A DNA stretch of 64,000 nt from a virus. The stretch lies in IMG/VR virus record IMGVR_UViG_3300010370_000029, positions 1 to 64,000 of that record; one strand, written 5' to 3'. Positions within the stretch are counted from its first letter, which is position 1, and each line of letters opens with the position of its first letter. Made by a program: the position numbers and the translations under genes. Below the pieces are notes generated by a model that searched no databases, had not been told where the DNA came from, and was given only the letters and a program-made list of their open reading frames with translations. This document shows, piece after piece, positions 31,830 to 49,246 of this stretch.

Positions 31830-34355
31830 ATGTATCAGGCAATTTACATTGAACGTGGTGAAGGATTTGGCAACGATACCGTGCATTTATGGGATGACGA
31901 GCTAGGGTATCAGACCATTCCTTATAATAAATTTGATTATGCGTATAAGCCCGACCGCAATGGGCAATTCATCAGCATGACTGGTGTGCGGTTGGCAAAG
32001 GTCAAGCGCTATAAGCGAGATGACCCATCATTATTTGAGAGCGACCTTCCCCAAGAGACTCGCGTGCTCACCGATTTATATCTGAACGAGGATAACGTTT
32101 CCCAAGGGCATAAGACGATGTTTTTCGACATCGAAGTGTCTATGGAAAATGGCGTGCCAAATATTGAGAATCCGAACAATGAAATTACGTCCATTGCGGT
32201 ATATGACTCGGTGACGCAGGAATATACGGTATTGGTACTGGACAAGGCGGGAGTTCAACCAAGTCGTGAGTATGATAATGTTAAGGTCGTAATGTATACA
32301 TCGGAATTGGACTTGCTCTATGGATTTTTGGACCTGTATGAGCAGATTGGACCGACGATTGTTACTGGATGGAATAGTGACTTTTTCGACATCCCATATC
32401 TCTATCATCGTATCAAGCAGCAGTGTGGACCAAATACCGCCGGTCGGTTGAGTCCGATTGGAAAGATTAAGTATTCCAAGTTCCGTAGTCGGTACCAGAT
32501 TGCGGGCGTATCTTCTCTAGACTATTTGACATTATATAAGAAGTTCACCTACACTCAACAGCCGAATTATCGTTTAGATACGATTGGTCGGTTGGAGGTG
32601 GGCATGGGAAAGGTCGAATATCAAGGGTCGCTCGATGAATTGTTCCGTAATGATTTGGAGAAGTTCATTGAGTACAATCTTCAAGACGTACGCATCATCG
32701 TAGAGATGGACAAGAAGCTCAAGCTGATTGAGCTCGTTCGTGGTATTTGTCATTTGGGTCACGTTTCATATGAAGATTATTGGTTTAGTTCGAAGTTCTT
32801 GGAAGGCACGATTGTAACCTATCTTCATAGAAAGGGCATCATTGTAACAAACCGACCCGCTGGTGGTCGTGAGATGATGGATAACAAGGTAGAAAATGAT
32901 GAAGAAGGATTCGCTGGTGCGTTTGTGAAGGAACCGAATCCCGGTCTATATGAATGGGTCTATTCCCTCGACTTACAATCGCTGTATCCATCTATCATTA
33001 TGAGTCTCAATATCAGCCCCGAAACCAAGATTGGATTTGTGACCAATTGGAATGTGGACAAGCATGCGGCTGGTGATATGCAGGAATATTTGATTCGTGG
33101 TACAACTGATGAGGAAGTGGTACGGTTGAGCCGTGAAGCGTTCTTGAAATATATGAAGATGGAAAGTCTGATGATTAGTTCCAACGGCGTTCTATATAAT
33201 GGAGGTGCGGTGGGGATTATTCCCGAAGTACTCGACAAGTGGTTCGCAGAACGCGTGGAATATAAGAATCTGATGAAGAAATATAAGAATGAGGGTAATA
33301 CCGAATTGGCTGAGTTCTACGACCGCCGACAGCACATTCAAAAGATTTTCTTGAATTCATTGTATGGTGTTCTTGGGCTGCCCATCTTCCGTTTCTTTGA
33401 TATTGACAATGCACTTGCCGTCACCGCGTCTGGTCAAGATGTGATTAAGAAGTCTGCGGCGTTTGCCAATGACTTGTATTGTTCAAAGCTGGAAGAGCAG
33501 AAAGATTATTGTACGTATATCGATACAGATTCGTTGTACTTCTCAGCAACTCCATTAATGCCAGAAACAGCATCACAGAAAGAATTTACTATCAAGTTGG
33601 CTCGTGCGATGGAGAAGAAGCTGAACGAGTATTATAACGAAATGGCTGAACAGCTGTTCTTCTGTAAGAATCATCGGTTGTATATCAAGGGTGAATCCGT
33701 TGCTCAGACCGCTATCTGGATTGCGAAGAAGCGGTATGCGATGAACGTGGTTTATGATTTGGAATCCAATCTTGAAGTGGCAAACAAGATGAAGGTCAAG
33801 GGATTGGATGTGGTTCGTTCATCGTTCCCGCCGGCGTTCCGTGACTTTATGAATAAGATGATGAAGGACATCTTGAATAAGGCAACGAAGGAAGAGATTG
33901 ACCAAAAGGTACTGACGTTCCGTGATTCGATGGATAGTATGTCGTATCTGGAAGTCGCCAGAAACACGGCGGTCAAGAATATCTCTGAATATGATTTACG
34001 GACGGGGAAGCTAAACGATTTCCGTAAGGGAACTCCCGCCCACGTAAAGGCAGCAATCACCTATAATTCTTTGTTGAAGCATTTCAAGATTCAAAATAAA
34101 TATGAAGCTATTTCGGATGGGGAAAAAGTGAAATGGTTATATCTGAAACAGAATCCGTGGAATCTCGAAGCGGTCGCTGTCAAGGGATATAATGACCCTC
34201 AGGAAATCGTTGAGATAGTAAATACTTATATTGATTATAATGCATTATTTGAGAACGAATTGCAGAAGAAATTAGAAGATTTTTATTCGGCATTGAAATG
34301 GGGTAATATACCCACCGAAGTTAATCAGAATGCTCAGGAATGGTTTAGTTTTTGA
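31830..34355 (+). CDS. polB: Family B DNA polymerase
   Basis: FDIEV, GWNSDFFDIPY, YNLQD exonuclease motifs; DLQSLYPSII, KIFLNSLYG, YIDTDS, KKRY. Confidence 0.96.
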   Translation: MYQAIYIERGEGFGNDTVHLWDDELGYQTIPYNKFDYAYKPDRNGQFISMTGVRLAKVKRYKRDDPSLFESDLPQETRVLTDLYLNEDNVSQGHKTMFFDIEVSMENGVPNIENPNNEITSIAVYDSVTQEYTVLVLDKAGVQPSREYDNVKVVMYTSELDLLYGFLDLYEQIGPTIVTGWNSDFFDIPYLYHRIKQQCGPNTAGRLSPIGKIKYSKFRSRYQIAGVSSLDYLTLYKKFTYTQQPNYRLDTIGRLEVGMGKVEYQGSLDELFRNDLEKFIEYNLQDVRIIVEMDKKLKLIELVRGICHLGHVSYEDYWFSSKFLEGTIVTYLHRKGIIVTNRPAGGREMMDNKVENDEEGFAGAFVKEPNPGLYEWVYSLDLQSLYPSIIMSLNISPETKIGFVTNWNVDKHAAGDMQEYLIRGTTDEEVVRLSREAFLKYMKMESLMISSNGVLYNGGAVGIIPEVLDKWFAERVEYKNLMKKYKNEGNTELAEFYDRRQHIQKIFLNSLYGVLGLPIFRFFDIDNALAVTASGQDVIKKSAAFANDLYCSKLEEQKDYCTYIDTDSLYFSATPLMPETASQKEFTIKLARAMEKKLNEYYNEMAEQLFFCKNHRLYIKGESVAQTAIWIAKKRYAMNVVYDLESNLEVANKMKVKGLDVVRSSFPPAFRDFMNKMMKDILNKATKEEIDQKVLTFRDSMDSMSYLEVARNTAVKNISEYDLRTGKLNDFRKGTPAHVKAAITYNSLLKHFKIQNKYEAISDGEKVKWLYLKQNPWNLEAVAVKGYNDPQEIVEIVNTYIDYNALFENELQKKLEDFYSALKWGNIPTEVNQNAQEWFSF

Positions 34356-34420
34356 TATTTATTTATTCACCCCTAGCGTCGAGCCACCCACAGACGGGGC
34401 TCGGTTATAGAGACTCTCTT

Positions 34421-37400
34421 ATGAGAAAAATGTTGGAAATTCTTTTAGCAACTGCGATGTTGTCTACCTCCGCTTATGCGCAAATCACCAGCGGAATCCT
34501 TCGTGGTACGGTTAAAGATTTTACAGGTAGTACAATTGAAAATGCAAATGTTACTGTGGTCTTTGTTCCAACCAATCAACGAATTGTTACGAAAACGACA
34601 ACAGAAGGTCGGTTCACATTATCCAACTTAAAACCAGGTGGTCCATATACTGTATCGGTGACCGCATTGGGGTTCCGTCCAAAGTTTACGGATAATCTCA
34701 CAGTTCGTTTGGGTGAAGCAACAAGCACAGATATTGAAATGGAAAAAATTGTTGTAGTATTAAATCAAGTATCGGTTATTGCAGACGTAGCAGCACAGGC
34801 ACGTAAAGATGGTGCGGTGGCACAACTCAATCAAGAGAAGTTGCAAGTGCTTCCCACCCTATCTCGTAGTCTCCAAGATATGACCCGTATGACCCCACAA
34901 GGTAACGGGGTTTCTTTTGCGGGTTCCAACTATCGGTATAACAACTTGACGATTGATGGAGCAGCATCGAATGATGCGTTCGGATTCAGTCAATCATCAG
35001 GTCAATCCACCGCATCAGTTCCAACGGGAACACCTGGTTCTCTTTCACGTTCACAACCTATTTCGCTTGACGCCATCGAACAAGTATCTGTGGTCATCGC
35101 ACCCTATGATGTGAAGATTGGTAATTTCACAGGTGGTAGCGTGAATGCAGTTACTCGTTCAGGTACCAACACCACCGAAGGTTCCATCTACTCATTCGGT
35201 CGTGTTCCACAATTTATCGGTGATGGTATCTCTGGTAAAATGCCAACCACCTTTAATGAATATCAAGCAGGTGGTCGTATCGGTGGTCCTATTATCAAGG
35301 ACAAGTTGTTCTACTTTTTGAATTTTGAAATTGCACGTAGAGCAGACCCTATCCTATTTGCACCTGGTAATCCAGGCGTGTTAGCCACGGAAGCAGTTGC
35401 ACAACAAGTTCGTGATAGTCTGGTGTCATTCGCAGCACGCTCTGGTGTTCCAAACTTTGATGCAGGAACCTTTGGGGCATATGATATTGAAGCAAATAGT
35501 GAAAAGTATTTCGGTCGTGTGGATTGGAATATTGGGAACTCTATCTTGACGGTTCGTAGTAATCTTGTCAATGCAGTCGCAGGAAACTTGGAACGTGGAC
35601 AAGCGCTCACCAAGTTAGCCTCACAAGACTTCGACCATTTCAGTAGAGCTACCAACACCGTTGCTGAATTGAAATCACAACTTGGAACAGGAGTATCTAA
35701 TAGTTTGTTGTTAGGATATTCACTTGTTCGTGACCACAGAAATCCATATGGTAATGTGTTCGCACCACAAATTGAAATCCAAGATATTCAGTTTGGTCAA
35801 ATCAATGCAGGTAGTGACCGTGAAGGGGTGGTGTATGGCACCAAAGTTCGCACCTATGAAGTGACTAACAATCTCACATGGTCTGTGGGGAAGCATACCC
35901 TTACCGCTGGTACTCACAATGAGTTCTACAATATTCAATACACCTTCGTGAATGGATACGCCGGTCGTTGGCAATACGCAAATCTCGCATCGTTCTTCGC
36001 AAATCGTCCTAATCGTATCAGAGCAACATTTGATTTGACGGATAATAGTTTAGATTATGTATTGAACAACCCAGGAGCAAACTTTAATATCACCGTTCCA
36101 AGTGTGTATATCCAAGACGAAGTATCTGTCACCGACAACTTCAAGGTGACCGCAGGGGTTCGTGCAGACTGGAATATGATGGATACACCAGTTCAAGCAG
36201 ATGCGTTTACGAACATCACTCTCACGAACGGCACCAAACCATATAGTACCATCACCAACGATTATAGTAGAAGTTTGTTGATTGGTCCTCGTTTCGGATT
36301 CAACTGGCAAACAGACAGAGTGACTTATCGTGGTGGGGTTGGATATTTTCAAGGAAGAATGCCGTTCGCATGGTATGCCTATCCATTCATCCACAACGGA
36401 TTGATTGTAGGAAACATTGATGCAAGACCAACCAATGTGGTTCCGTTGATTGTGGACCCACTTCGTCAAAGTTCATTGAGTAGCACCACGACATATGAAA
36501 TGAATGTGATCGGGAACAAGTATGTTCAACCACAGATGCGTAGAATGAACTTGGCAACAGACATCAAGTTACCATTTGATGCATTACTTGTACTGGATTG
36601 GACATTCACCAAGACATTAAACGACATCGTATTCACGAACATCGGATTACCCGCACCCGCAGGTAATCTCGCAGGTGGTGACCGCAGACCAGTCTACACC
36701 TCAACCAGATTAACAACCACTACAACTAATCCATACACATCAGTATTCGCACTCAATAATACTGATAAGGGTTACAGATACAACGTCACAGCAAATCTCA
36801 GTAAGAAGTGGGACCACCTTGATGTGATGGCAGCATATAGTTATGGGGAAGCAAAGGATTTGGCAAACGGTCAACGCAACTCGTTCCAATCACACGTGGA
36901 ATACAATCAATTGGTGAAGGGTAACCAATATGACCTCACGTGGTCTAACTTTGATATTCGTCATCGTTTCGTGGTGAATGGTAGTTGGAACTGGAAGAAC
37001 ACCACCGTATCAGCAGTCTATACAGGTTCATCAGGTTCACCATTCTCCTATGTGTATTCTGGTGATTTAAATGGTGACGGGTCAAGTCATAATGATTTGT
37101 TGTATGTTCCACGCAATATTGATGAAATCAAGTTGGTTCCATCTGCTCGTCCTACGGGTCAAGTAGATACCAGAACAGCACAACAAATCTGGGAAGATTT
37201 AGATAGATTCATCAGTAATGACCCATATCTGTCCTCACATCGTGGTGAATACACCAAGAGAAACGGTGCAAGAACTCCGTGGAATCACCGAGCAGATGTT
37301 CGTATCATCCAATCAGTCAAGAATGTAGATATTACATTTGACATCACTAACTTCGGTAATCTGTTGAACAAGGATTGGGGTAAGTATTATTTCGTTCCAA

Positions 37401-37558
37401 ATCTTAATAATCAAAATGTCTATCCACTCCAATATCGTTCAGGTCGTGGTGTGAATAGCGTTCCAACATTTAGTTTCGACCCACTAAATACCACTTATCA
37501 GACAGATGATTTAATGTCTCGTTGGCAGATGCAAGTGGGGATTCGAGTTAACTTCTAA
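34421..37558 (+). CDS. Oar-like TonB-dependent outer-membrane transporter with N-terminal carboxypeptidase-regulatory-like domain
   Basis: Signal peptide MRKMLEILLATAMLSTSAYA/Q; GTVKD..G..I..A.V, LKPGGPYTV; plug NNLTIDG..ND.FG, PISLDAIEQ...APYDV..GNFTGG.VNAVTRSGTN; barrel ends QVGIRVNF. Confidence 0.92.
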   Translation: MRKMLEILLATAMLSTSAYAQITSGILRGTVKDFTGSTIENANVTVVFVPTNQRIVTKTTTEGRFTLSNLKPGGPYTVSVTALGFRPKFTDNLTVRLGEATSTDIEMEKIVVVLNQVSVIADVAAQARKDGAVAQLNQEKLQVLPTLSRSLQDMTRMTPQGNGVSFAGSNYRYNNLTIDGAASNDAFGFSQSSGQSTASVPTGTPGSLSRSQPISLDAIEQVSVVIAPYDVKIGNFTGGSVNAVTRSGTNTTEGSIYSFGRVPQFIGDGISGKMPTTFNEYQAGGRIGGPIIKDKLFYFLNFEIARRADPILFAPGNPGVLATEAVAQQVRDSLVSFAARSGVPNFDAGTFGAYDIEANSEKYFGRVDWNIGNSILTVRSNLVNAVAGNLERGQALTKLASQDFDHFSRATNTVAELKSQLGTGVSNSLLLGYSLVRDHRNPYGNVFAPQIEIQDIQFGQINAGSDREGVVYGTKVRTYEVTNNLTWSVGKHTLTAGTHNEFYNIQYTFVNGYAGRWQYANLASFFANRPNRIRATFDLTDNSLDYVLNNPGANFNITVPSVYIQDEVSVTDNFKVTAGVRADWNMMDTPVQADAFTNITLTNGTKPYSTITNDYSRSLLIGPRFGFNWQTDRVTYRGGVGYFQGRMPFAWYAYPFIHNGLIVGNIDARPTNVVPLIVDPLRQSSLSSTTTYEMNVIGNKYVQPQMRRMNLATDIKLPFDALLVLDWTFTKTLNDIVFTNIGLPAPAGNLAGGDRRPVYTSTRLTTTTTNPYTSVFALNNTDKGYRYNVTANLSKKWDHLDVMAAYSYGEAKDLANGQRNSFQSHVEYNQLVKGNQYDLTWSNFDIRHRFVVNGSWNWKNTTVSAVYTGSSGSPFSYVYSGDLNGDGSSHNDLLYVPRNIDEIKLVPSARPTGQVDTRTAQQIWEDLDRFISNDPYLSSHRGEYTKRNGARTPWNHRADVRIIQSVKNVDITFDITNFGNLLNKDWGKYYFVPNLNNQNVYPLQYRSGRGVNSVPTFSFDPLNTTYQTDDLMSRWQMQVGIRVNF

Positions 37559-40665: not shown

Positions 40666-40884
40666 ATGTCTAAAATTATGGTAGAGATAAGTGGAGAAAT
40701 GGTAGATAATATTATTCTGCAAGAGATACAAGACACCAAAGAGATGTTGACTGAACAGTTAGAACGGGTTAAACTAAATGGTAAAGGTGATGTTTTTGAT
40801 TTGGATGTAAAGACAGATATCAAACTTATTAAGAAGCACATTGAAGCATGTGATTTGATTTACAAGTATTACGGCGGTAAGTAA
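40666..40884 (+). CDS. Hypothetical protein
   Basis: ATG preceded by AGGA. Confidence 0.55.
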   Translation: MSKIMVEISGEMVDNIILQEIQDTKEMLTEQLERVKLNGKGDVFDLDVKTDIKLIKKHIEACDLIYKYYGGK

Positions 40885-40890
40885 TTATTC

Positions 40891-41009
40891 GGCACCGCAG
40901 TTGGTCGGGACAACGATAGTATGACACGGGCGCTACCCGAGGTTACAAGCATACTATGCTAGCCAAGGACTAGGTGAGAGCCTAGATGGGTTCGAATCCC
41001 ACGGTGCCA
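40891..41009 (+). ncRNA. tRNA-like RNA with non-canonical anticodon region
   Basis: Acceptor GGCACCG/CGGTGCC+A; D-arm GTTG/CAAC; T-arm TGGG-TTCGAAT-CCCA; 8-bp ATAGTATG/CATACTAT stem closing a branched loop; extra hairpin CTAGG-TGAGAG-CCTAG. Confidence 0.75.
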
Positions 41010-41024
41010 CTTTACGAGGAAACT

Positions 41025-41390
41025 ATGGAAGATAAAAAGAATCCAAATGCGTTAACCTATGGGATATCCCCAAGTGCTCCCGCATCAATTAAACCAGTAG
41101 AAGTGGATAAGTGGGTCGGCAAAGTCGAACCCACTTTTAAGCATTATTATGAGGAACGATATAACGATTTGGTTAGACAATACGAAGAGTTGGTCAAGGA
41201 TTACGAAATCAATAAGATGTGTTATGAAGCCTCGCTTGGGTTTGAACCAAATATAGGGCAGGTCTACCACTTGTATCGTAAGGGTGATGGTAGTACATTT
41301 CTATCAATCGTAGAACCACAATACGCATTTTGGGGTAATCATATTGGTAGTTATAGATTGAACGCTCAATATGCATGGGAACAAGTCTAA
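41025..41390 (+). CDS. DUF2452-like protein
   Basis: L.Y...PSAP..IKP, FEP.IGQVYHLY, FLSIVEP..W; GAGGA RBS. Confidence 0.7.
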   Translation: MEDKKNPNALTYGISPSAPASIKPVEVDKWVGKVEPTFKHYYEERYNDLVRQYEELVKDYEINKMCYEASLGFEPNIGQVYHLYRKGDGSTFLSIVEPQYAFWGNHIGSYRLNAQYAWEQV

Positions 41391-41974
41391 TGGCGTTACA
41401 AGGATACACCGTCGAGCACATCAGCTTTTCCGATACTGTCCGTTCTTTTTTACGGAAATGGCACTATTCGGATTATGTCAATATTCAAGAAAAACACACT
41501 TTTGGATTATTTCGTGAGGGTGTGTTTTTACCTGAACTGGTTGGGATATGTATTTATACTAGGCCGGCAGGACCAAGTGCCGCGCAGAAGTATTATCCAC
41601 AAGACCCCGATAAATGTCTGGAACTCAGGCGATTGTGTTTAGTGGATGATACTCCAAAGAACGCTGAAAGTTTCTTTGTGAGTCGGACATTAAAGTGGTT
41701 ACGAAAAAATACGGATTGGAAGTTTGTCGTAAGTTATGCTGACCCAGAGCAAGGACATAAAGGTATCATCTATCGGGCAGCTAACTTTAAGTATGAAGGT
41801 ATCACCGCGCCTGGGTCATCACTACTGGTAGATGGGAAACCTTTTCACATTAGAACCTTGACAATGTTGGACCGTCCGTATGGAGTAGAAATCAATCAAC
41901 GATATAAAGCTGGCGACCCCGGCGTACAGATTATAAAGACGGAACCTAAGCATATTTACACATATCAACTCTAG
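41390..41974 (+). CDS. Mom-like GNAT DNA-modification protein (copy 1)
   Basis: WHYS, FGLF, LELRRLCL...PKNAESFFVS, VSYADPEQGHKGIIYRAANF. Confidence 0.8.
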   Translation: MALQGYTVEHISFSDTVRSFLRKWHYSDYVNIQEKHTFGLFREGVFLPELVGICIYTRPAGPSAAQKYYPQDPDKCLELRRLCLVDDTPKNAESFFVSRTLKWLRKNTDWKFVVSYADPEQGHKGIIYRAANFKYEGITAPGSSLLVDGKPFHIRTLTMLDRPYGVEINQRYKAGDPGVQIIKTEPKHIYTYQL

Positions 41975-45465: not shown

Positions 45466-47133
45466 ATGGCTGGGCTGACCCTCGTATCATCAGGAGCAAA
45501 CGTCAAGTCGTGGACGTTTGATAAAATTTCTAAGGAGTATAGTACTACTCTCGTAGACACGCCAAAGTATCAGCGACCGGATGTGTTCGGCTTTGTACGG
45601 AACGGCAGCGGTAGTAATTGGCAGCGTAATCTCATCCGTTCTATTTTGATGGGCAATCCCATCCCTCAGCTCCACTTTCGCTACGTATTCTCAAAGGGGC
45701 CAAATGGTCTAGAGTGGAAGTATGAGATTGTGGACGGAGGACATCGCACACGTACTGTATATTACTTTCTAAACAATTGCATTAAAACTCCAATTGACTG
45801 TACGCTTACCGATGTTGACGGGAACCAGTACAACATTGGTGCTATGCATCTTTCACAGATTATACAGAAGTATCCTGTGCTAGAGGATTACATCTATAAT
45901 CTTTCTCTTAGCGTTGTAGAGTATGAAAATCTCACCGATGATGATGCAGAAACACTTTTTCTTACTCTTAATGATTTGAACAAGATGTCTCCCGCTGACA
46001 AGCGGAACGCTATTAATAATATTATTGCGGATACGAACCGTAATCTTGGTGCGGTTGACTCCCCTAACGCTTTTTCGATGTTCACCAGCCGTTCATTCAT
46101 TAAGAACGATTGGAAGGCTGACTACACCAGCTTGGATGCAGTCAGCCGAGAGTCGGATGAAATTGTATCGTGGGCGATGTACTATCTATACAGCGGTGGT
46201 ATATTTGCAAAAGACTCCAGCGGAAAGCCGCGGTTCGCGGGTATGGACGCCCAATCAGTTCTCGACAAGATGTATCGTGACGAGTATCTTATGAGGGAGT
46301 TGGCGGTACCGGGGTCTAAGATGGAAAAGAATCTGCGGTCACTACTGTCAATTGTTAATAATATTGTCGTTAAGAATCCGCGTCTTGATATTTTTAAAAA
46401 GGGCGGAAAGTGGTTCGCTGGTCCTCTAAAGAAGCTTATTATGCTAGTCGCTGAGATGCACAATGTAAACGGTACTTTTAACTTTAGTAAAGTTAAAATT
46501 AATACCGACGACTTCTTTACCTCTTTCAATCGAGCGACCAGCGAACTGAAGAACGACAAGAACGTAAAGCCACACCTGCCATACCAGTCGTATATGCTGG
46601 TAAACAACAAGGTTCACGTAAATAGCGTTCAGCCGGATAATGTTGGTGATACAATATATCCGTTCCATAAAGTGTTTACGGGAGGCGCTCGACTTGACGA
46701 TATGCTGTACATCTATTATCATTACGTCACCAAGGGTTATATGAATTTTGGAGTTACGAAATTGGATAAGCGTCGAGACTTTAATAAGGATATCGTAGAT
46801 ACTCTACTCACGGAACAGAAGAATTGCTGCCGGTTTTGCTCAAAGTTACTCACGGATGGTAATTACGCGGTAGACCACATTGCTCCGCATTCTTTTGGTG
46901 GACCTACAATTCTGGAAAACAGCCAGATTCTCTGTTCTTCTTGTAACGGTCAGAAGTCGAATGGCATGACACTCCAAGATGTGGTACATCTCTGTGAGAG
47001 AATGAACGTAGACGTTCAACTTAAGGAAGTTGTAGTTGGACTGGCTCACGCAGTTATTACCTCTGGCGCAACTGACCGACTCTCGGAAGGTGATATCCGT
47101 ACAGTAATTAAGCTGGTATTTGGCAAACAATAA
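45466..47133 (+). CDS. DUF262 (ParB-like) + HNH nuclease, GmrSD/SspE-like architecture
   Basis: PKYQR, W...LI.SIL.G.PIP, IVDGGHR, FLTLN; C-terminal CRFC...DHIAPHSFGG....NSQILCSSCNGQKS. Confidence 0.8.
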   Translation: MAGLTLVSSGANVKSWTFDKISKEYSTTLVDTPKYQRPDVFGFVRNGSGSNWQRNLIRSILMGNPIPQLHFRYVFSKGPNGLEWKYEIVDGGHRTRTVYYFLNNCIKTPIDCTLTDVDGNQYNIGAMHLSQIIQKYPVLEDYIYNLSLSVVEYENLTDDDAETLFLTLNDLNKMSPADKRNAINNIIADTNRNLGAVDSPNAFSMFTSRSFIKNDWKADYTSLDAVSRESDEIVSWAMYYLYSGGIFAKDSSGKPRFAGMDAQSVLDKMYRDEYLMRELAVPGSKMEKNLRSLLSIVNNIVVKNPRLDIFKKGGKWFAGPLKKLIMLVAEMHNVNGTFNFSKVKINTDDFFTSFNRATSELKNDKNVKPHLPYQSYMLVNNKVHVNSVQPDNVGDTIYPFHKVFTGGARLDDMLYIYYHYVTKGYMNFGVTKLDKRRDFNKDIVDTLLTEQKNCCRFCSKLLTDGNYAVDHIAPHSFGGPTILENSQILCSSCNGQKSNGMTLQDVVHLCERMNVDVQLKEVVVGLAHAVITSGATDRLSEGDIRTVIKLVFGKQ

Positions 47134-48071: not shown

Positions 48072-48401
48072 ATGACCAGTAAGTTTATCCCGCCCGACCC
48101 GCGCCAGATGCGTAATCAGCAGGCACCTGACCTTTCATTGGCTACCGATATTGTCTGTGAGAATTGCGGTAATCTGACTTTCCAAGAAGTTCTCTTGATG
48201 AAGAAGGTATCCGCTCTCGTCTCACCAAACGGTAAGGAAGGAATTGTTCCTATTCCGACATTTTCTTGCGTAGCATGTGGATATGTGAACAAGATGTTCC
48301 GTCCGGTGACTCCGGCCGGCGCAGAAGAGCCGACCGAAGCGACTCGTACAGAAGCGGCTGAACCAGAGCCCACTCGTCCGAAGCTCGTATTAGAGGACTA
48401 A
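48072..48401 (+). CDS. Zinc-ribbon protein
   Basis: CENCG...CVACG. Confidence 0.65.
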   Translation: MTSKFIPPDPRQMRNQQAPDLSLATDIVCENCGNLTFQEVLLMKKVSALVSPNGKEGIVPIPTFSCVACGYVNKMFRPVTPAGAEEPTEATRTEAAEPEPTRPKLVLED

Positions 48402-49246
48402 TGGAAACAACCTTCGTTGAGACTTCCCGTGTCACGGTGCGAGAAATATCGAAATCCGTGGCACGAGATTTCATTCAGACTCATCACTATACACATAAGT
48501 TCAGTTCCACCCGATATGCCCTTGGGGTATTTTATGTGGAAGATGCCGAACATATATTCTTTGCTGGTGCGAACGAGAAGCTCATTGGGTGTATGACCTA
48601 TGGGCATCCCGTCAGCAATAGAACGGTGGATAGTATTGTGGATGGATTGGAACTTGACGAAGTGCTAGAATTGACCCGCTTGGTGTGCTTGGACGGATAT
48701 GGAAAGAATCTGGAAAGTTTTGTGATTTCCAAATCGTTTGAGTGGATGAAGAAGCATGACCCCAAGGTGAAAGTCTTGGTCAGTTATGCTGACCCCGAAC
48801 AAGCACATACCGGCGGGATTTATCGGGCAACGAATTGGCTGTATCAAGGATGTGGGTATTCCAAGTTGATGCCAGATTTCAGTATCCGAATCAATGAAGA
48901 TGACCTCTGGACGCATAGCCGTACCGTTGGAGCCCGTTGGGGTAATAAGTCGGTGGATAATCTGGCAAAGACTATTGGTCAAACCTTCTATAGAAAAGAA
49001 GAAACGGCAAAACATCGGTATATCTATTTCCTTTGTGGGAAGAAGGAACGGAAACGGATGATAAAGGAATTAAAGATTCCCGTGTTCGGATATTCAGAAA
49101 TCAAGCCGTATACCCAACTGATTCAGAAGGTGCATGTAAAGGATGGAGTAGTTGAACGTATTGAAATCCTGCAAGGGGTTGACAATGGCTGGTCAAACAA
49201 ACAGATTGTAATGCAGGAGGATGAAGATGGCGAAGACTCTATTTGA
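48401..49246 (+). CDS. Mom-like GNAT DNA-modification protein (copy 2)
   Basis: HHYTH, LELTRLVC...KNLESFVIS, VSYADPEQAHTGGIYRATNW, KHRY. Confidence 0.82.
   Translation: METTFVETSRVTVREISKSVARDFIQTHHYTHKFSSTRYALGVFYVEDAEHIFFAGANEKLIGCMTYGHPVSNRTVDSIVDGLELDEVLELTRLVCLDGYGKNLESFVISKSFEWMKKHDPKVKVLVSYADPEQAHTGGIYRATNWLYQGCGYSKLMPDFSIRINEDDLWTHSRTVGARWGNKSVDNLAKTIGQTFYRKEETAKHRYIYFLCGKKERKRMIKELKIPVFGYSEIKPYTQLIQKVHVKDGVVERIEILQGVDNGWSNKQIVMQEDEDGEDSI

What the first reader, a model, noticed from the sequence alone, without database searches (positions are those of the whole stretch)
40891..41009. 119-nt tRNA mimic with an intact acceptor/elbow but a rebuilt anticodon arm
It has a perfect 7-bp acceptor stem with discriminator A (no encoded CCA), a 4-bp D-stem and a TTCGAAT T-loop on a short 4-bp stem. 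In place of the anticodon hairpin is an 8-bp stem closing a branched loop with an inner CGGG-CGCTA-CCCG hairpin, followed by a 12-nt linker and a second T-loop-like hairpin (CTAGG-TGAGAG-CCTAG). It is too short for tmRNA, lacks G3-U70 and could not decode normally. Possible roles: decoy for anticodon nucleases, synthetases or tRNA-sensing defences, or an RNase P processing signal for the downstream Mom-like operon. I do not recognise the family.
Basis: partly seen in the sequence, partly recalled or inferred. Interest (0 to 1): 0.75.

Follow-up and report, generated by a model that had tools for sequence, protein, structure and literature searches.

The report
Anticodon-less tRNA-like RNA of T4-like phages
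This is a real, strongly conserved phage gene for an RNA that keeps the amino-acid-carrying end and the elbow of a tRNA but has swapped the codon-reading arm for a different conserved module; it matches no described RNA family, and its job is unproven, the best guess being a private carrier for the phage's tRNA-dependent DNA-modifying (Mom) enzymes.

Summary
The 119-nt element at 40891-41009 (+) is exactly as described. It belongs to a family of 29 sequence variants in uncultured T4-like phages. On 27 aligned variants, 19 of 23 base pairs show compensatory changes and 96.9% of cells pair.

Conserved parts:
- a 7-bp acceptor stem
- the D-arm
- a 4-bp T-stem with a UUCGAAU loop
- an 8-11-bp arm in place of the anticodon arm
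- an invariant CGCUA apical loop
- a conserved GCUA..GCCAAGGA linker

ARAGORN and Rfam 15 do not call it. Intron-mode "anticodons" disagree between members, so it is neither an intron tRNA nor a decayed one.

In one lineage it lies in the replication module beside Mom-family genes, in three different gene orders. Mu Mom was recently shown to take glycine from charged tRNA. In another lineage it lies inside the phage's tRNA array, 2-11 nt after a canonical tRNA.

The closest described things are T4 RNAC and RNAD, two stable RNAs of unknown role. RNAC has a tRNA-like part with a long arm. RNAD carries the same CGCUA hairpin.

My best reading is a non-decoding acceptor-end carrier for Mom enzymes (about 0.4).

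The scan found this same RNA before on other DNA (e1-5827610, e1-5784396).

The parts
40891..40897 (+). Acceptor stem, 5' strand (GGCACCG)
   Evidence: Pairs with 41002-41008. 100% of cells pair in 27 variants, and 6 of 7 pairs change on both sides. G1-C72, G2-C71 and C3-G70 are nearly invariant, while pairs 4-6 vary freely.
40898..40899 (+). Positions 8-9 (C A). C8 stands where tRNAs have U8
   Evidence: C8 is invariant. A9 is G only in the L330 type.
40900..40914 (+). D-arm: stem GUUG/CAAC with a 7-nt loop GUCGGGA that holds the GG of the elbow
   Evidence: 100% of cells pair. Three of four pairs covary (GUUG/CAAC, GUCG/CGAC, GUGG/CCAC, GACU/AGUC). The loop is nearly invariant.
40916..40923 (+). 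Long arm, 5' strand (AUAGUAUG), in place of the 5-bp anticodon stem
   Evidence: Pairs with 40950-40957. The arm is 7-11 bp in relatives, and 7 of the 8 modelled pairs change on both sides.
40924..40949 (+). Apical module: ACA, the mini-hairpin CGGG-CGCUA-CCCG (40927-40939), then AGGUUACAAG
   Evidence: CGCUA (40931-40935) is invariant in all variants. GGG against CYY is compatible in 25 of 27 variants. GUUAYA follows in most. The same GGG-(U)CGCUA-CC hairpin is in T4 RNAD.
40950..40957 (+). Long arm, 3' strand (CAUACUAU)
   Evidence: See 40916-40923.
40958..40969 (+). Conserved single-stranded linker GCUAGCCAAGGA
   Evidence: GCUA and CCAAGGA are conserved in all variants. One extra base (C, G, U or A) is present in variants that lack the variable hairpin. 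L272 and L374 carry a 26-nt insertion.
40970..40986 (+). Variable-arm hairpin CUAGGU-GAGA-GCCUAG plus A
   Evidence: It is present in about half of the family and absent in L008, L022, L047, L050, L053, L330, L351 and others. It has a GNRA loop and one compensatory change (UAGG/CCUA to UAGA/UCUA). The core UAGGGAAACCUAU of the L026 type equals the variable arm of a phage tRNA-Ser(ACU).
40987..41001 (+). T-arm: 4-bp stem UGGG/CCCA with loop UUCGAAU
   Evidence: 100% of cells pair, 3 of 4 pairs covary and the loop is invariant. The stem is 4 bp in every member, so the acceptor/T stack is 11 bp and not 12.
41002..41009 (+). Acceptor stem, 3' strand (CGGUGCC), and discriminator A. No CCA is encoded
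   Evidence: The discriminator is A in most variants, U in L064, L072 and L330, and G in L053 and L351.
40666..40884 (+). Upstream 72-aa ORF. Its stop codon lies 6 nt before the RNA
   Evidence: No Pfam or PHROG match.
41025..41390 (+). DUF2452 gene. It starts 15 nt after the RNA, and its Shine-Dalgarno GAGG directly follows the RNA
   Evidence: PF10504, E 1e-8. It lies next to the RNA in 41 of 60 loci.
41375..41974 (+). Mom-family gene 1 (GNAT; a tRNA-dependent DNA aminoacyltransferase family)
   Evidence: PF25680, 123 bits, and phrog_1384. It keeps Mu Mom residues H58, Y59, R111, S124, D149 and Y159, while R151 aligns with E.
48401..49246 (+). Mom-family gene 2, 7.4 kb downstream on the same strand
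   Evidence: PF25680, 160 bits. The same key residues are kept.

Best explanation
The element is a gene for a stable, tRNA-derived RNA that cannot decode, found in a clade of large T4-like phages.

Shown:
- The acceptor stem, D-arm, long arm and T-arm are under strong structural selection.
- The top of the acceptor stem (G1-C72, G2-C71, C3-G70, mostly A73), the elbow, an apical CGCUA loop and a GCUA..GCCAAGGA linker are conserved in sequence.
- No member has an anticodon loop.
- There is one copy per genome.
- It lies either inside the phage tRNA array or next to Mom-family genes.

Inferred:
- It is cut out of a polycistronic transcript like a tRNA, by RNase P at the 5' end and by 3' trimming after the discriminator.
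- The host adds CCA.
- It presents a chargeable 3' end, but the missing anticodon keeps it out of translation, and the 11-bp rather than 12-bp acceptor/T helix may help.

The job I think most likely is a private aminoacyl (or acyl) donor for the phage's Mom-family enzymes, whose prototype, Mu Mom, moves glycine from Gly-tRNA onto N6 of adenine in DNA. A private donor would let heavy DNA modification run without draining translating tRNAs. The conserved apical loop and linker would then be the handle for the charging enzyme or for the transferase.

Which amino acid is carried and which enzyme charges the RNA are unknown.
For: Family and structure:
- There are 29 variants.
- 19 of 23 pairs are compensatory and 96.9% of cells pair, against 0 of 500 shuffles.
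- RNAalifold finds the same fold on its own.
- The 119 nt are 100% identical where flanking genes are 65-87% identical.
- There is one hit of 83-120 bits per genome, against at most 22 bits for the phages' canonical tRNAs.

Selection on the acceptor end:
- Pairs 1-3 are nearly invariant while pairs 4-6 vary freely.

The phage treats it as a tRNA gene:
- In L272, L281 and L351 it follows a canonical tRNA by 2-11 nt on the same strand. In L050 and L053 it lies in the array.

Link to Mom:
- A Mom gene lies within 2.3 kb in 14 of 29 variants, in three different orders: RNA-Mom1, RNA-DUF2452-Mom1, and Mom ending 8 nt before the RNA in the L330/L370 type.
- It lies 6-9 kb downstream in two more variants.
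- All four records that are at least 46% complete hold a Mom gene.
- Both Mom copies of this window keep six of the seven key residues of Mu Mom.
- Mom uses charged tRNA and probably reads mainly the 3' acceptor end (PMC13219725).

Precedent:
- Staphylococcus aureus has non-proteinogenic tRNA-Gly species that feed Fem transferases and evade EF-Tu (PMC4052509, PMC9976931).
Against: - No experiment shows that the RNA is made, processed, CCA-tailed or charged.
- The link to Mom is not exclusive. L301 keeps the RNA with no Mom1, Mom2 or DruA-like gene in 8.8 kb downstream.
- The tRNA-array lineage shows no Mom in contigs of 19-62 kb, although those are only 11-32% complete.
- L012 and L016 have Mom1 with no RNA just upstream.
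- 80 other Mom loci from other phages hold no member of this family. Only two canonical tRNAs lie next to Mom there.
- Most of the adjacency lies within one syntenic replication module, so shared descent explains part of it.
- The acceptor end does not fit bacterial glycine identity, which needs U73, C2-G71 and G3-C70 (established knowledge; PMC9976931).
- The discriminator varies between lineages (A, U or G).
- No phage synthetase of Pfam families 2b, 1 or 1g and no CCA-adding enzyme was found in 5 records.
- The same phages carry a reduced tRNA-Gly(UCC) that could itself be Mom's donor.
- A phage 98-99% identical to this one has lost the 5' acceptor strand (L004/L007).
Confidence: 0.4

Rival explanations
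1. It is a scaffolded effector or regulatory RNA. The tRNA shape serves only for processing and stability. The working part is the conserved apical CGCUA loop and the GCCAAGGA linker, which bind a phage or host protein or RNA. This would be the same unknown job as T4 RNAC and RNAD, and it need not involve Mom or aminoacylation.
For: - The most conserved non-tRNA parts are the loop and the linker.
- The RNA is kept in a lineage where it lies in the tRNA array with no Mom in reach.
- T4 has two stable RNAs at the equivalent place, directly after tRNA-Arg. RNAC has a tRNA-like part with a 10-bp arm. RNAD has an ACCGG-GUCGCUA-CCGGU hairpin with the same loop motif.
- L301 keeps the RNA without Mom.
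Against: - It does not explain why the top three acceptor pairs are conserved in sequence while the lower pairs drift.
- No complementary target for the linker or the loop was found above chance in the window, G000 or G001.
- The model R1 scores T4 RNAC at only 12-14 bits and does not score RNAD, so homology with the T4 RNAs is not shown.
Confidence: 0.25
2. It is a decoy or sponge for a host factor or defence that grips the acceptor end or the elbow of tRNAs. Examples are toxins that modify the 3' CCA end or the aminoacyl group, or tRNA-sensing systems.
For: - The acceptor end and the elbow are intact and conserved. The RNA cannot enter decoding, so it would be harmless to translation.
- Phages of this group invest heavily in tRNA biology, with 25-31 canonical tRNAs in G001 and G002.
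Against: - Most known tRNA-cutting defences attack the anticodon loop, which is missing here.
- A decoy for an enzyme must be made in large excess.
- This reading leaves the invariant apical loop and linker, and the repeated placement beside Mom in different orders, unexplained.
- No test was possible with these tools.
Confidence: 0.15
3. It is only a processing signal: a tRNA-like punctuation mark that lets RNase P and a 3' nuclease cut the operon transcript just upstream of the DUF2452/Mom genes.
For: - It lies 6 nt after the stop codon of the upstream ORF and 15 nt before the next start codon, and the Shine-Dalgarno sequence directly follows.
- No significant promoter or terminator of its own was found.
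Against: - Punctuation needs only the acceptor/T minihelix. It does not need an invariant loop, a conserved linker and a covarying 8-11-bp arm.
- In relatives the RNA lies between tRNA genes, or is followed by a gene on the other strand, as in L053.
Confidence: 0.07
4. It is an intron-containing or decaying ordinary tRNA, such as the tRNA-Ser(ACU) with a 30-nt intron that ARAGORN reports in intron mode.
For: - ARAGORN -i calls tRNA-Ser(ACU) with a 30-nt intron in the window copy.
- The variable arm resembles that of a phage tRNA-Ser(ACU).
Against: - Across the family, ARAGORN -i gives Ser, Leu, Asn, Ile, Arg, Gly or Lys with different intron sites, or nothing in 15 of 27 variants.
- The supposed anticodon positions change in step with their pairing partners, so they are stem and not anticodon.
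- The stem that ARAGORN proposes (AUAGU/GCUAG) cannot form in L053 and other variants.
- Decay is excluded by 100% identity among diverged phages.
Confidence: 0.02

Closest known systems
Bacteriophage T4 small stable RNAs RNAC (species 1, 139 nt) and RNAD (species 2, 119 nt); roles unknown (PMC3014915, PMC9697503)
   Same: - Both are non-coding RNAs of T4-type phages, encoded at the end of the tRNA cluster directly after a tRNA (T4: tRNA-Arg, RNAD, RNAC; here L351: tRNA-Arg, 4 nt, then the RNA).
- The 3' part of RNAC has a 7-bp acceptor-like stem, a D-like arm (AUAU-GGUUGAG-AUAU), a 10-bp arm with a loop that is not an anticodon loop, and a UUCGAAU T-arm.
- RNAD carries a GGG-UCGCUA-CC hairpin like the apical module here.
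- Neither has an Rfam family. Both RNAC and this element get only a weak tRNA-Sec hit of about 17 bits.
   Different: - RNAC has a 5' extension of about 50 nt, a 5-bp T-stem, and its extra bases before rather than after the long arm.
- RNAD is not tRNA-shaped.
- The family model scores RNAC at only 12-14 bits and does not score RNAD, so common descent is a lead and not a result.
- T4 has no Mom gene next to these RNAs in the 8-kb stretch read.
Non-proteinogenic tRNA-Gly species of Staphylococcus aureus, the donors for Fem peptidyl transferases
   Same: They are tRNA-derived carriers thought to work outside translation for a GNAT-fold aminoacyl transferase. Altered T-stem and elbow features keep them away from EF-Tu (PMC4052509, PMC9976931).
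   Different: - Those keep a normal anticodon arm, glycine identity and tRNA length, and tRNA finders detect them.
- This RNA has no anticodon loop at all, an 8-11-bp arm, extra conserved modules, and no recognisable glycine identity.
Phage Mu Mom with host Gly-tRNA-Gly (Silva et al., Nat Commun 2026, PMC13219725; PDB 8bv8)
   Same: Mom-family GNAT genes lie next to the RNA. Both copies here keep H58, Y59, R111, S124, D149 and Y159. The enzyme family is shown to use a charged tRNA as donor.
   Different: Mu encodes no tRNA and uses ordinary host tRNA-Gly. The paper mentions no tRNA-like genes beside Mom homologues. R151 of Mu Mom aligns with E here.
Canonical class II tRNA (Rfam RF00005), such as the phages' own tRNA-Ser(ACU) and tRNA-Met(CAU)
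   Same: - It shares the acceptor stem, the D-arm with GG, the T-loop and an optional variable-arm hairpin.
- The variable-arm core is identical to that of a phage tRNA-Ser(ACU).
- The acceptor top G1 G2 C3 with A73 is as in the neighbouring tRNA-Met.
   Different: - There is no 5-bp anticodon stem with a 7-nt loop.
- The T-stem is 4 bp.
- C8 replaces U8.
- It scores 16-18 bits against a gathering score of 29.
- ARAGORN does not call it.

Membership tests
tRNA (RF00005) | Reaches the Rfam gathering score or is called by a tRNA finder | tested here: not met
   No Rfam hit at gathering score. The tRNA model gives 18.2 bits for the G001 copy and nothing for the window copy, against a cut-off of 29. 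ARAGORN in default mode finds 0 in the window and 0 of 27 family members.
tRNA (RF00005) | 7-bp acceptor stem, a D-arm with G18 G19, and a T-loop of the UUCRANY type | tested here: met
   All three are present and covary.
tRNA (RF00005) | 5-bp anticodon stem with a 7-nt loop (U33, anticodon, purine 37) and a conserved anticodon among orthologues | tested here: not met
   The arm is 7-11 bp with an apical region of 18-39 nt. The positions that would be the anticodon vary in step with their pairing partners.
tRNA (RF00005) | 5-bp T-stem, giving a 12-bp acceptor/T stack | tested here: not met
   The T-stem is 4 bp in all 29 variants, so the stack is 11 bp.
Intron-containing tRNA | Removing one insert gives the same canonical anticodon arm in all members | tested here: not met
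   ARAGORN -i gives seven different identities and intron sites, and no call in 15 of 27 members.
tmRNA | G3-U70 alanine identity, a tag reading frame and pseudoknots, about 300 nt or more | tested here: not met
   The third pair is C3-G70 and the RNA is 102-128 nt long. ARAGORN in tmRNA mode finds none in the whole 87-kb record. There is no Rfam hit.
tRNA-Sec (RF01852) | Gathering score of 47 bits; 8+5 or 9+4 acceptor/T stack; UCA anticodon | tested here: not met
   It scores 16.3 bits. The stack is 7+4 and there is no anticodon loop.
T4 RNAC / RNAD | Sequence and structure homology with the T4 RNAs | tested here: inconclusive
   R1 gives 12-14 bits on RNAC (E 0.02-0.06 in 8 kb) and nothing on RNAD. 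The architecture is shared with RNAC and the CGCUA hairpin with RNAD. The position after a tRNA in the array is shared as well.
Non-proteinogenic (non-ribosomal) aminoacyl-carrier tRNA | Is aminoacylated and used by a tRNA-dependent transferase | not testable with these tools
   This needs charging assays and Mom assays. No raw RNA reads were on offer, only contigs.
Non-proteinogenic (non-ribosomal) aminoacyl-carrier tRNA | Gene is linked to a gene for an aminoacyl-tRNA-dependent transferase | tested here: inconclusive
   A Mom gene lies within 2.3 kb in 14 of 29 variants, in three different orders, and within 9 kb in two more. It is absent within reach in L301 and in the tRNA-array lineage.
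Non-proteinogenic (non-ribosomal) aminoacyl-carrier tRNA | Bacterial glycine identity set (U73, G1-C72, C2-G71, G3-C70, C35, C36), as expected for a Mu-type Mom donor | tested here: not met
   The family has mostly A73, with G2-C71 and C3-G70, and no anticodon.

The most novel reading that the evidence does not exclude
T4-like phages encode an anticodon-less tRNA-shaped carrier. It is matured by the tRNA machinery, charged through its conserved acceptor top and apical CGCUA/linker handle, and consumed by Mom-family enzymes to decorate adenines in DNA. That would be a private aminoacyl supply line for DNA hypermodification, possibly delivering a residue other than glycine. The same logic would give a function to the T4 RNAC and RNAD RNAs, whose roles are still listed as unknown.
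Probability: 0.3. Interest if true: 0.85.

Novelty: new variant of a known kind. Interest (0 to 1): 0.7.

Why it matters
If the carrier reading holds, this would be the first virus-encoded RNA dedicated to feeding a DNA-modifying enzyme. It would be a natural tRNA look-alike that is charged but kept out of translation. That bears on how phages pay for heavy DNA hypermodification, on what Mom-family enzymes recognise in their donor, and on the design of orthogonal aminoacyl carriers.

The family matters whatever its function turns out to be. It is a well-defined, covariation-supported RNA class missing from Rfam and invisible to tRNA finders. It also gives a comparative handle on the T4 RNAC and RNAD RNAs, whose roles are still unknown (PMC3014915, PMC9697503).

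Tried and rejected
- **Intron tRNA.** ARAGORN -i gives inconsistent calls across the family. Rejected.
- **tmRNA and tRNA-Sec.** Features not met.
- **Public RNA runs.** Only assembled contigs were on offer. One 168-nt contig from a river metatranscriptome covers a relative's copy and stops at 41008, but it carries 56 nt of upstream sequence. Contigs cannot show ends, strand or CCA. No conclusion drawn.
- **Wide pattern scans.** No listed bacterial genome row was a true member. The metagenome rows added 13 variants.
- **Bacteroidota genomes.** No match to a family pattern in the 401 sampled, and none with R1 in 4 genomes. The host stays unknown.
- **GenBank phage collection.** No homologue.
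- **Base-pairing targets.** The complement of the linker (UCCUUGGC) and the complement of the loop (RRGUAGCG) occur at chance level.
- **Own promoter or terminator.** Nothing above the shuffle background.
- **Phage charging or CCA enzymes.** PF01743, PF00587, PF09334 and PF00133 are absent from the 5 records searched for each. Other synthetase families were not searched.
- **DUF2452 neighbour.** The model has pLDDT 80.5 and shows a long helix plus a small beta domain. It has no significant PDB fold match.
- **The 118-aa neighbour.** Only hypothetical T4-like protein clusters came up.
- **General link between Mom and tRNA-like RNAs.** 80 other Mom loci gave 0 family hits and 2 canonical tRNAs.
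- **Closest canonical paralogue among 57 phage tRNAs.** None is close.
Full report
**The observation.**
The sequence at 40891-41009 (+) reads GGCACCG CA GUUG-GUCGGGA-CAAC G AUAGUAUG [ACA CGGG-CGCUA-CCCG AGGUUACAAG] CAUACUAU GCUAGCCAAGGA CUAGGU-GAGA-GCCUAG A UGGG-UUCGAAU-CCCA CGGUGCC A. It fills the gap between a 72-aa ORF, whose stop codon lies 6 nt upstream, and a DUF2452 gene that starts 15 nt downstream with its GAGG Shine-Dalgarno directly after the RNA. ARAGORN in default mode finds no tRNA or tmRNA in the window or in the whole 87-kb record. Rfam 15 has no match at gathering score, and the best weak hit is tRNA-Sec at 16.3 bits against a cut-off of 47. The single-sequence fold has a shuffle z-score of -2.76.

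**Relatives.**
An exact-pattern scan found the same 119 nt, 100% identical, in five viral contigs whose flanking genes are only 65-87% identical to the window. Further scans, first through the Mom protein and then through D-arm and loop/linker patterns, raised this to 29 distinct sequences of 102-128 nt. All come from uncultured viral or freshwater, wastewater and sediment metagenome contigs. None was found in the GenBank phage collection, in the bacterial genome rows returned, or in 401 sampled Bacteroidota genomes.

**Structure.**
- On a MAFFT alignment of 25 variants, the cloverleaf with a long arm pairs in 96.5% of cells, and 17 of 23 pairs change on both sides.
- On 27 variants aligned to the model, 96.9% of cells pair and 19 of 23 pairs change on both sides. 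No shuffle of 500 reaches this, and slid controls pair at 37-63%.
- RNAalifold predicts the same helices on its own.
- The acceptor stem (7 bp), the D-stem (4 bp) and the T-stem pair in 100% of cells. The T-stem is 4 bp in every member.
- The arm that replaces the anticodon arm is 7-11 bp and varies freely in sequence, for example AUAGUAUG/CAUACUAU, GUAGUAAA/UUUACUAC, ACGAUAUAAA/UUUAUGUCGU and CUAAUAAGAA/UUCUUAUUAG.
- Conserved in sequence are G1-C72, G2-C71 and C3-G70, C8, the D-loop GUCGGGA, the T-loop, an apical CGCUA, and the linker GCUA(N)GCCAAGGA.
- CGCUA is flanked by GGG and CYY. That pairing is compatible in 25 of 27 variants but shows one-sided changes only.
- Acceptor pairs 4-6 vary freely.
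- The hairpin before the T-arm is a variable-arm hairpin with a GNRA loop. About half of the members lack it.

**What it is not.**
In intron mode ARAGORN calls the window copy tRNA-Ser(ACU) with a 30-nt intron. Across the family it gives Ser, Leu, Asn, Ile, Arg, Gly or Lys with different intron sites, or nothing in 15 of 27 variants. The supposed anticodon bases are simply one strand of the covarying stem. Decay is excluded by the conservation. Model R1 finds one copy per genome at 83-120 bits, while the same phages' canonical tRNAs score at most 22 bits.

**The phages.**
- Relatives carry 25 (G001) and 31 (G002, 89% complete) canonical tRNAs.
- They have gp44/62-type clamp-loader genes and T4-like hypothetical protein clusters.
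- No CCA-adding enzyme and no synthetase of Pfam families 2b, 1 or 1g was found in the five records searched for each family.

**Two genomic settings.**

*(a) The replication module.*
- The gene order is TonB-type receptor, ligase, (small ORFs), RNA, DUF2452 and Mom1 in either order, a 119-aa protein, a 239-aa protein, a DruA-like protein, a glycosyltransferase, the clamp loader, then Mom2.
- A Mom gene lies within 2.3 kb in 14 of 29 variants, in three arrangements. The third, in the L330/L370 lineage, has a 266-aa Mom (PF25680, 177 bits) that ends 8 nt before the RNA.
- In G002, G004 and L072 the nearest Mom lies 6-9 kb downstream on the same strand.
- All four records that are at least 46% complete have at least one Mom.

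*(b) The tRNA array.*
- In L272 the RNA starts 2 nt after a tRNA-Met(CAU). In L281 it starts 11 nt after one.
- In L351 it starts 4 nt after tRNA-Arg. In L050 and L053 it lies among tRNA genes.
- These contigs are 11-32% complete and show no Mom.

*Exceptions.*
- L301 keeps the RNA with no Mom or DruA-like gene in 8.8 kb downstream.
- L012 and L016 have Mom1 with no RNA just upstream.
- L004/L007, which is 98-99% identical to the window, has lost the first 8 nt of the RNA.
- Eighty Mom loci of other phages hold no member of the family.

**What is known.**
Silva et al. (Nat Commun 2026, PMC13219725) showed that Mu Mom, a GNAT enzyme, transfers glycine from Gly-tRNA-Gly to N6 of adenine in dsDNA. 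They suggest that it reads mainly the 3' acceptor end, and they mention no tRNA-like genes beside homologues. Aligned to PDB 8bv8, both Mom copies of this window keep H58, Y59, R111, S124, D149 and Y159, while R151 aligns with E. Dedicated non-translating tRNA-Gly species feed the Fem transferases of Staphylococcus aureus.

T4 itself encodes two stable RNAs of unknown role directly after tRNA-Arg:
- RNAC ends in a tRNA-like domain with a 10-bp arm and a UUCGAAU T-arm.
- RNAD begins with ACCGG-GUCGCUA-CCGGU, the same loop motif as here.
- Rfam has no family for either RNA.
- R1 scores RNAC at only 12-14 bits.

**Reading.**
Established: this is a real RNA gene family, tRNA-derived, unable to decode, under strong selection on its acceptor top, its elbow and two new modules, and handled by the phage like a tRNA gene.

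Inferred: it is matured by the tRNA machinery, gets CCA from the host, and acts through its 3' end. I rank a private donor for Mom-family enzymes first, at about 0.4. The reasons are that the enzyme family is tRNA-dependent, that the adjacency survives rearrangement, and that the conservation pattern points to the acceptor end.

Against this stand the exceptions listed above, the acceptor end that does not fit glycine identity, the variable discriminator, and a reduced tRNA-Gly(UCC) in the same phages that could serve Mom instead.

Rivals:
- a scaffolded effector RNA acting through the loop and linker, like T4 RNAC and RNAD (0.25)
- an acceptor-end or elbow decoy (0.15)
- pure transcript punctuation (0.07)
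- an intron-containing or decaying tRNA (0.02)

**Earlier notes of this scan.**
The same 119 nt were noted on two other genomes, and one follow-up reached the same reading. I treated these as leads only.

Noticed in passing
L324:2800-2869 (G002) and L322:8663-8732, minus strand (G001): The tRNA arrays of related phages hold a 70-nt tRNA-Gly(UCC) with a reduced D-arm: a 3-bp stem and a short loop without GG. It could itself be a non-translating glycine donor for Mom.
   Followed up: partly
window 48401-49246: A second, larger Mom-family gene (281 aa; PF25680, 160 bits) lies after the clamp-loader gene. It is only 34% identical to Mom1, so the phage has two diverged Mom enzymes.
   Followed up: partly
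window 45466-47133: A 555-aa protein with a GmrSD_N (DUF262-type) domain and an HNH nuclease domain lies inside the DNA-modification and replication block.
   Followed up: no
window 34352-37558: A 1068-aa outer-membrane beta-barrel protein with a CarboxypepD_reg domain, of the TonB-dependent receptor type, is encoded by the phage just upstream of the ligase. Homologues keep this place in relatives.
   Followed up: no
L370:7681-9787, minus strand: In the L330/L370 lineage the DruA-like and GT4-like genes are replaced by two TET-associated glycosyltransferase (TAGT) genes and a methylase-like gene. Mom lies directly before the RNA and an amidase gene follows it.
   Followed up: partly
L004:11648-11766 and L007 (contig IMGVR_UViG_3300008261_000032): A phage 98-99% identical to the window has a deletion of window 40818-40898. 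It removes the end of the 72-aa ORF and the 5' acceptor strand of the RNA.
   Followed up: partly
L272:272-399 and L374:1-103: One variant carries a 26-nt insertion inside the conserved linker, between GCUA and GGCCAAGGA.
   Followed up: no
L442:3028-3102 and L444:861-934: In two unrelated Mom-bearing phages, a canonical tRNA follows the Mom gene closely: tRNA-Arg(UCU) by 99 nt and tRNA-Met(CAU) by 37 nt.
   Followed up: no
L457:2909-3172 (phage T4, rnaC and rnaD): T4 RNAC holds GAGUAGCG twice. This is the complement of the CGCUAC in the 5' hairpin loop of RNAD, so the two T4 RNAs could pair with each other. No such partner was found in G000 or G001.
   Followed up: partly
L322 and L324 (G001 and G002 tRNA arrays): Both arrays include a tRNA-Ser with the unusual anticodon ACU.
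   Followed up: no
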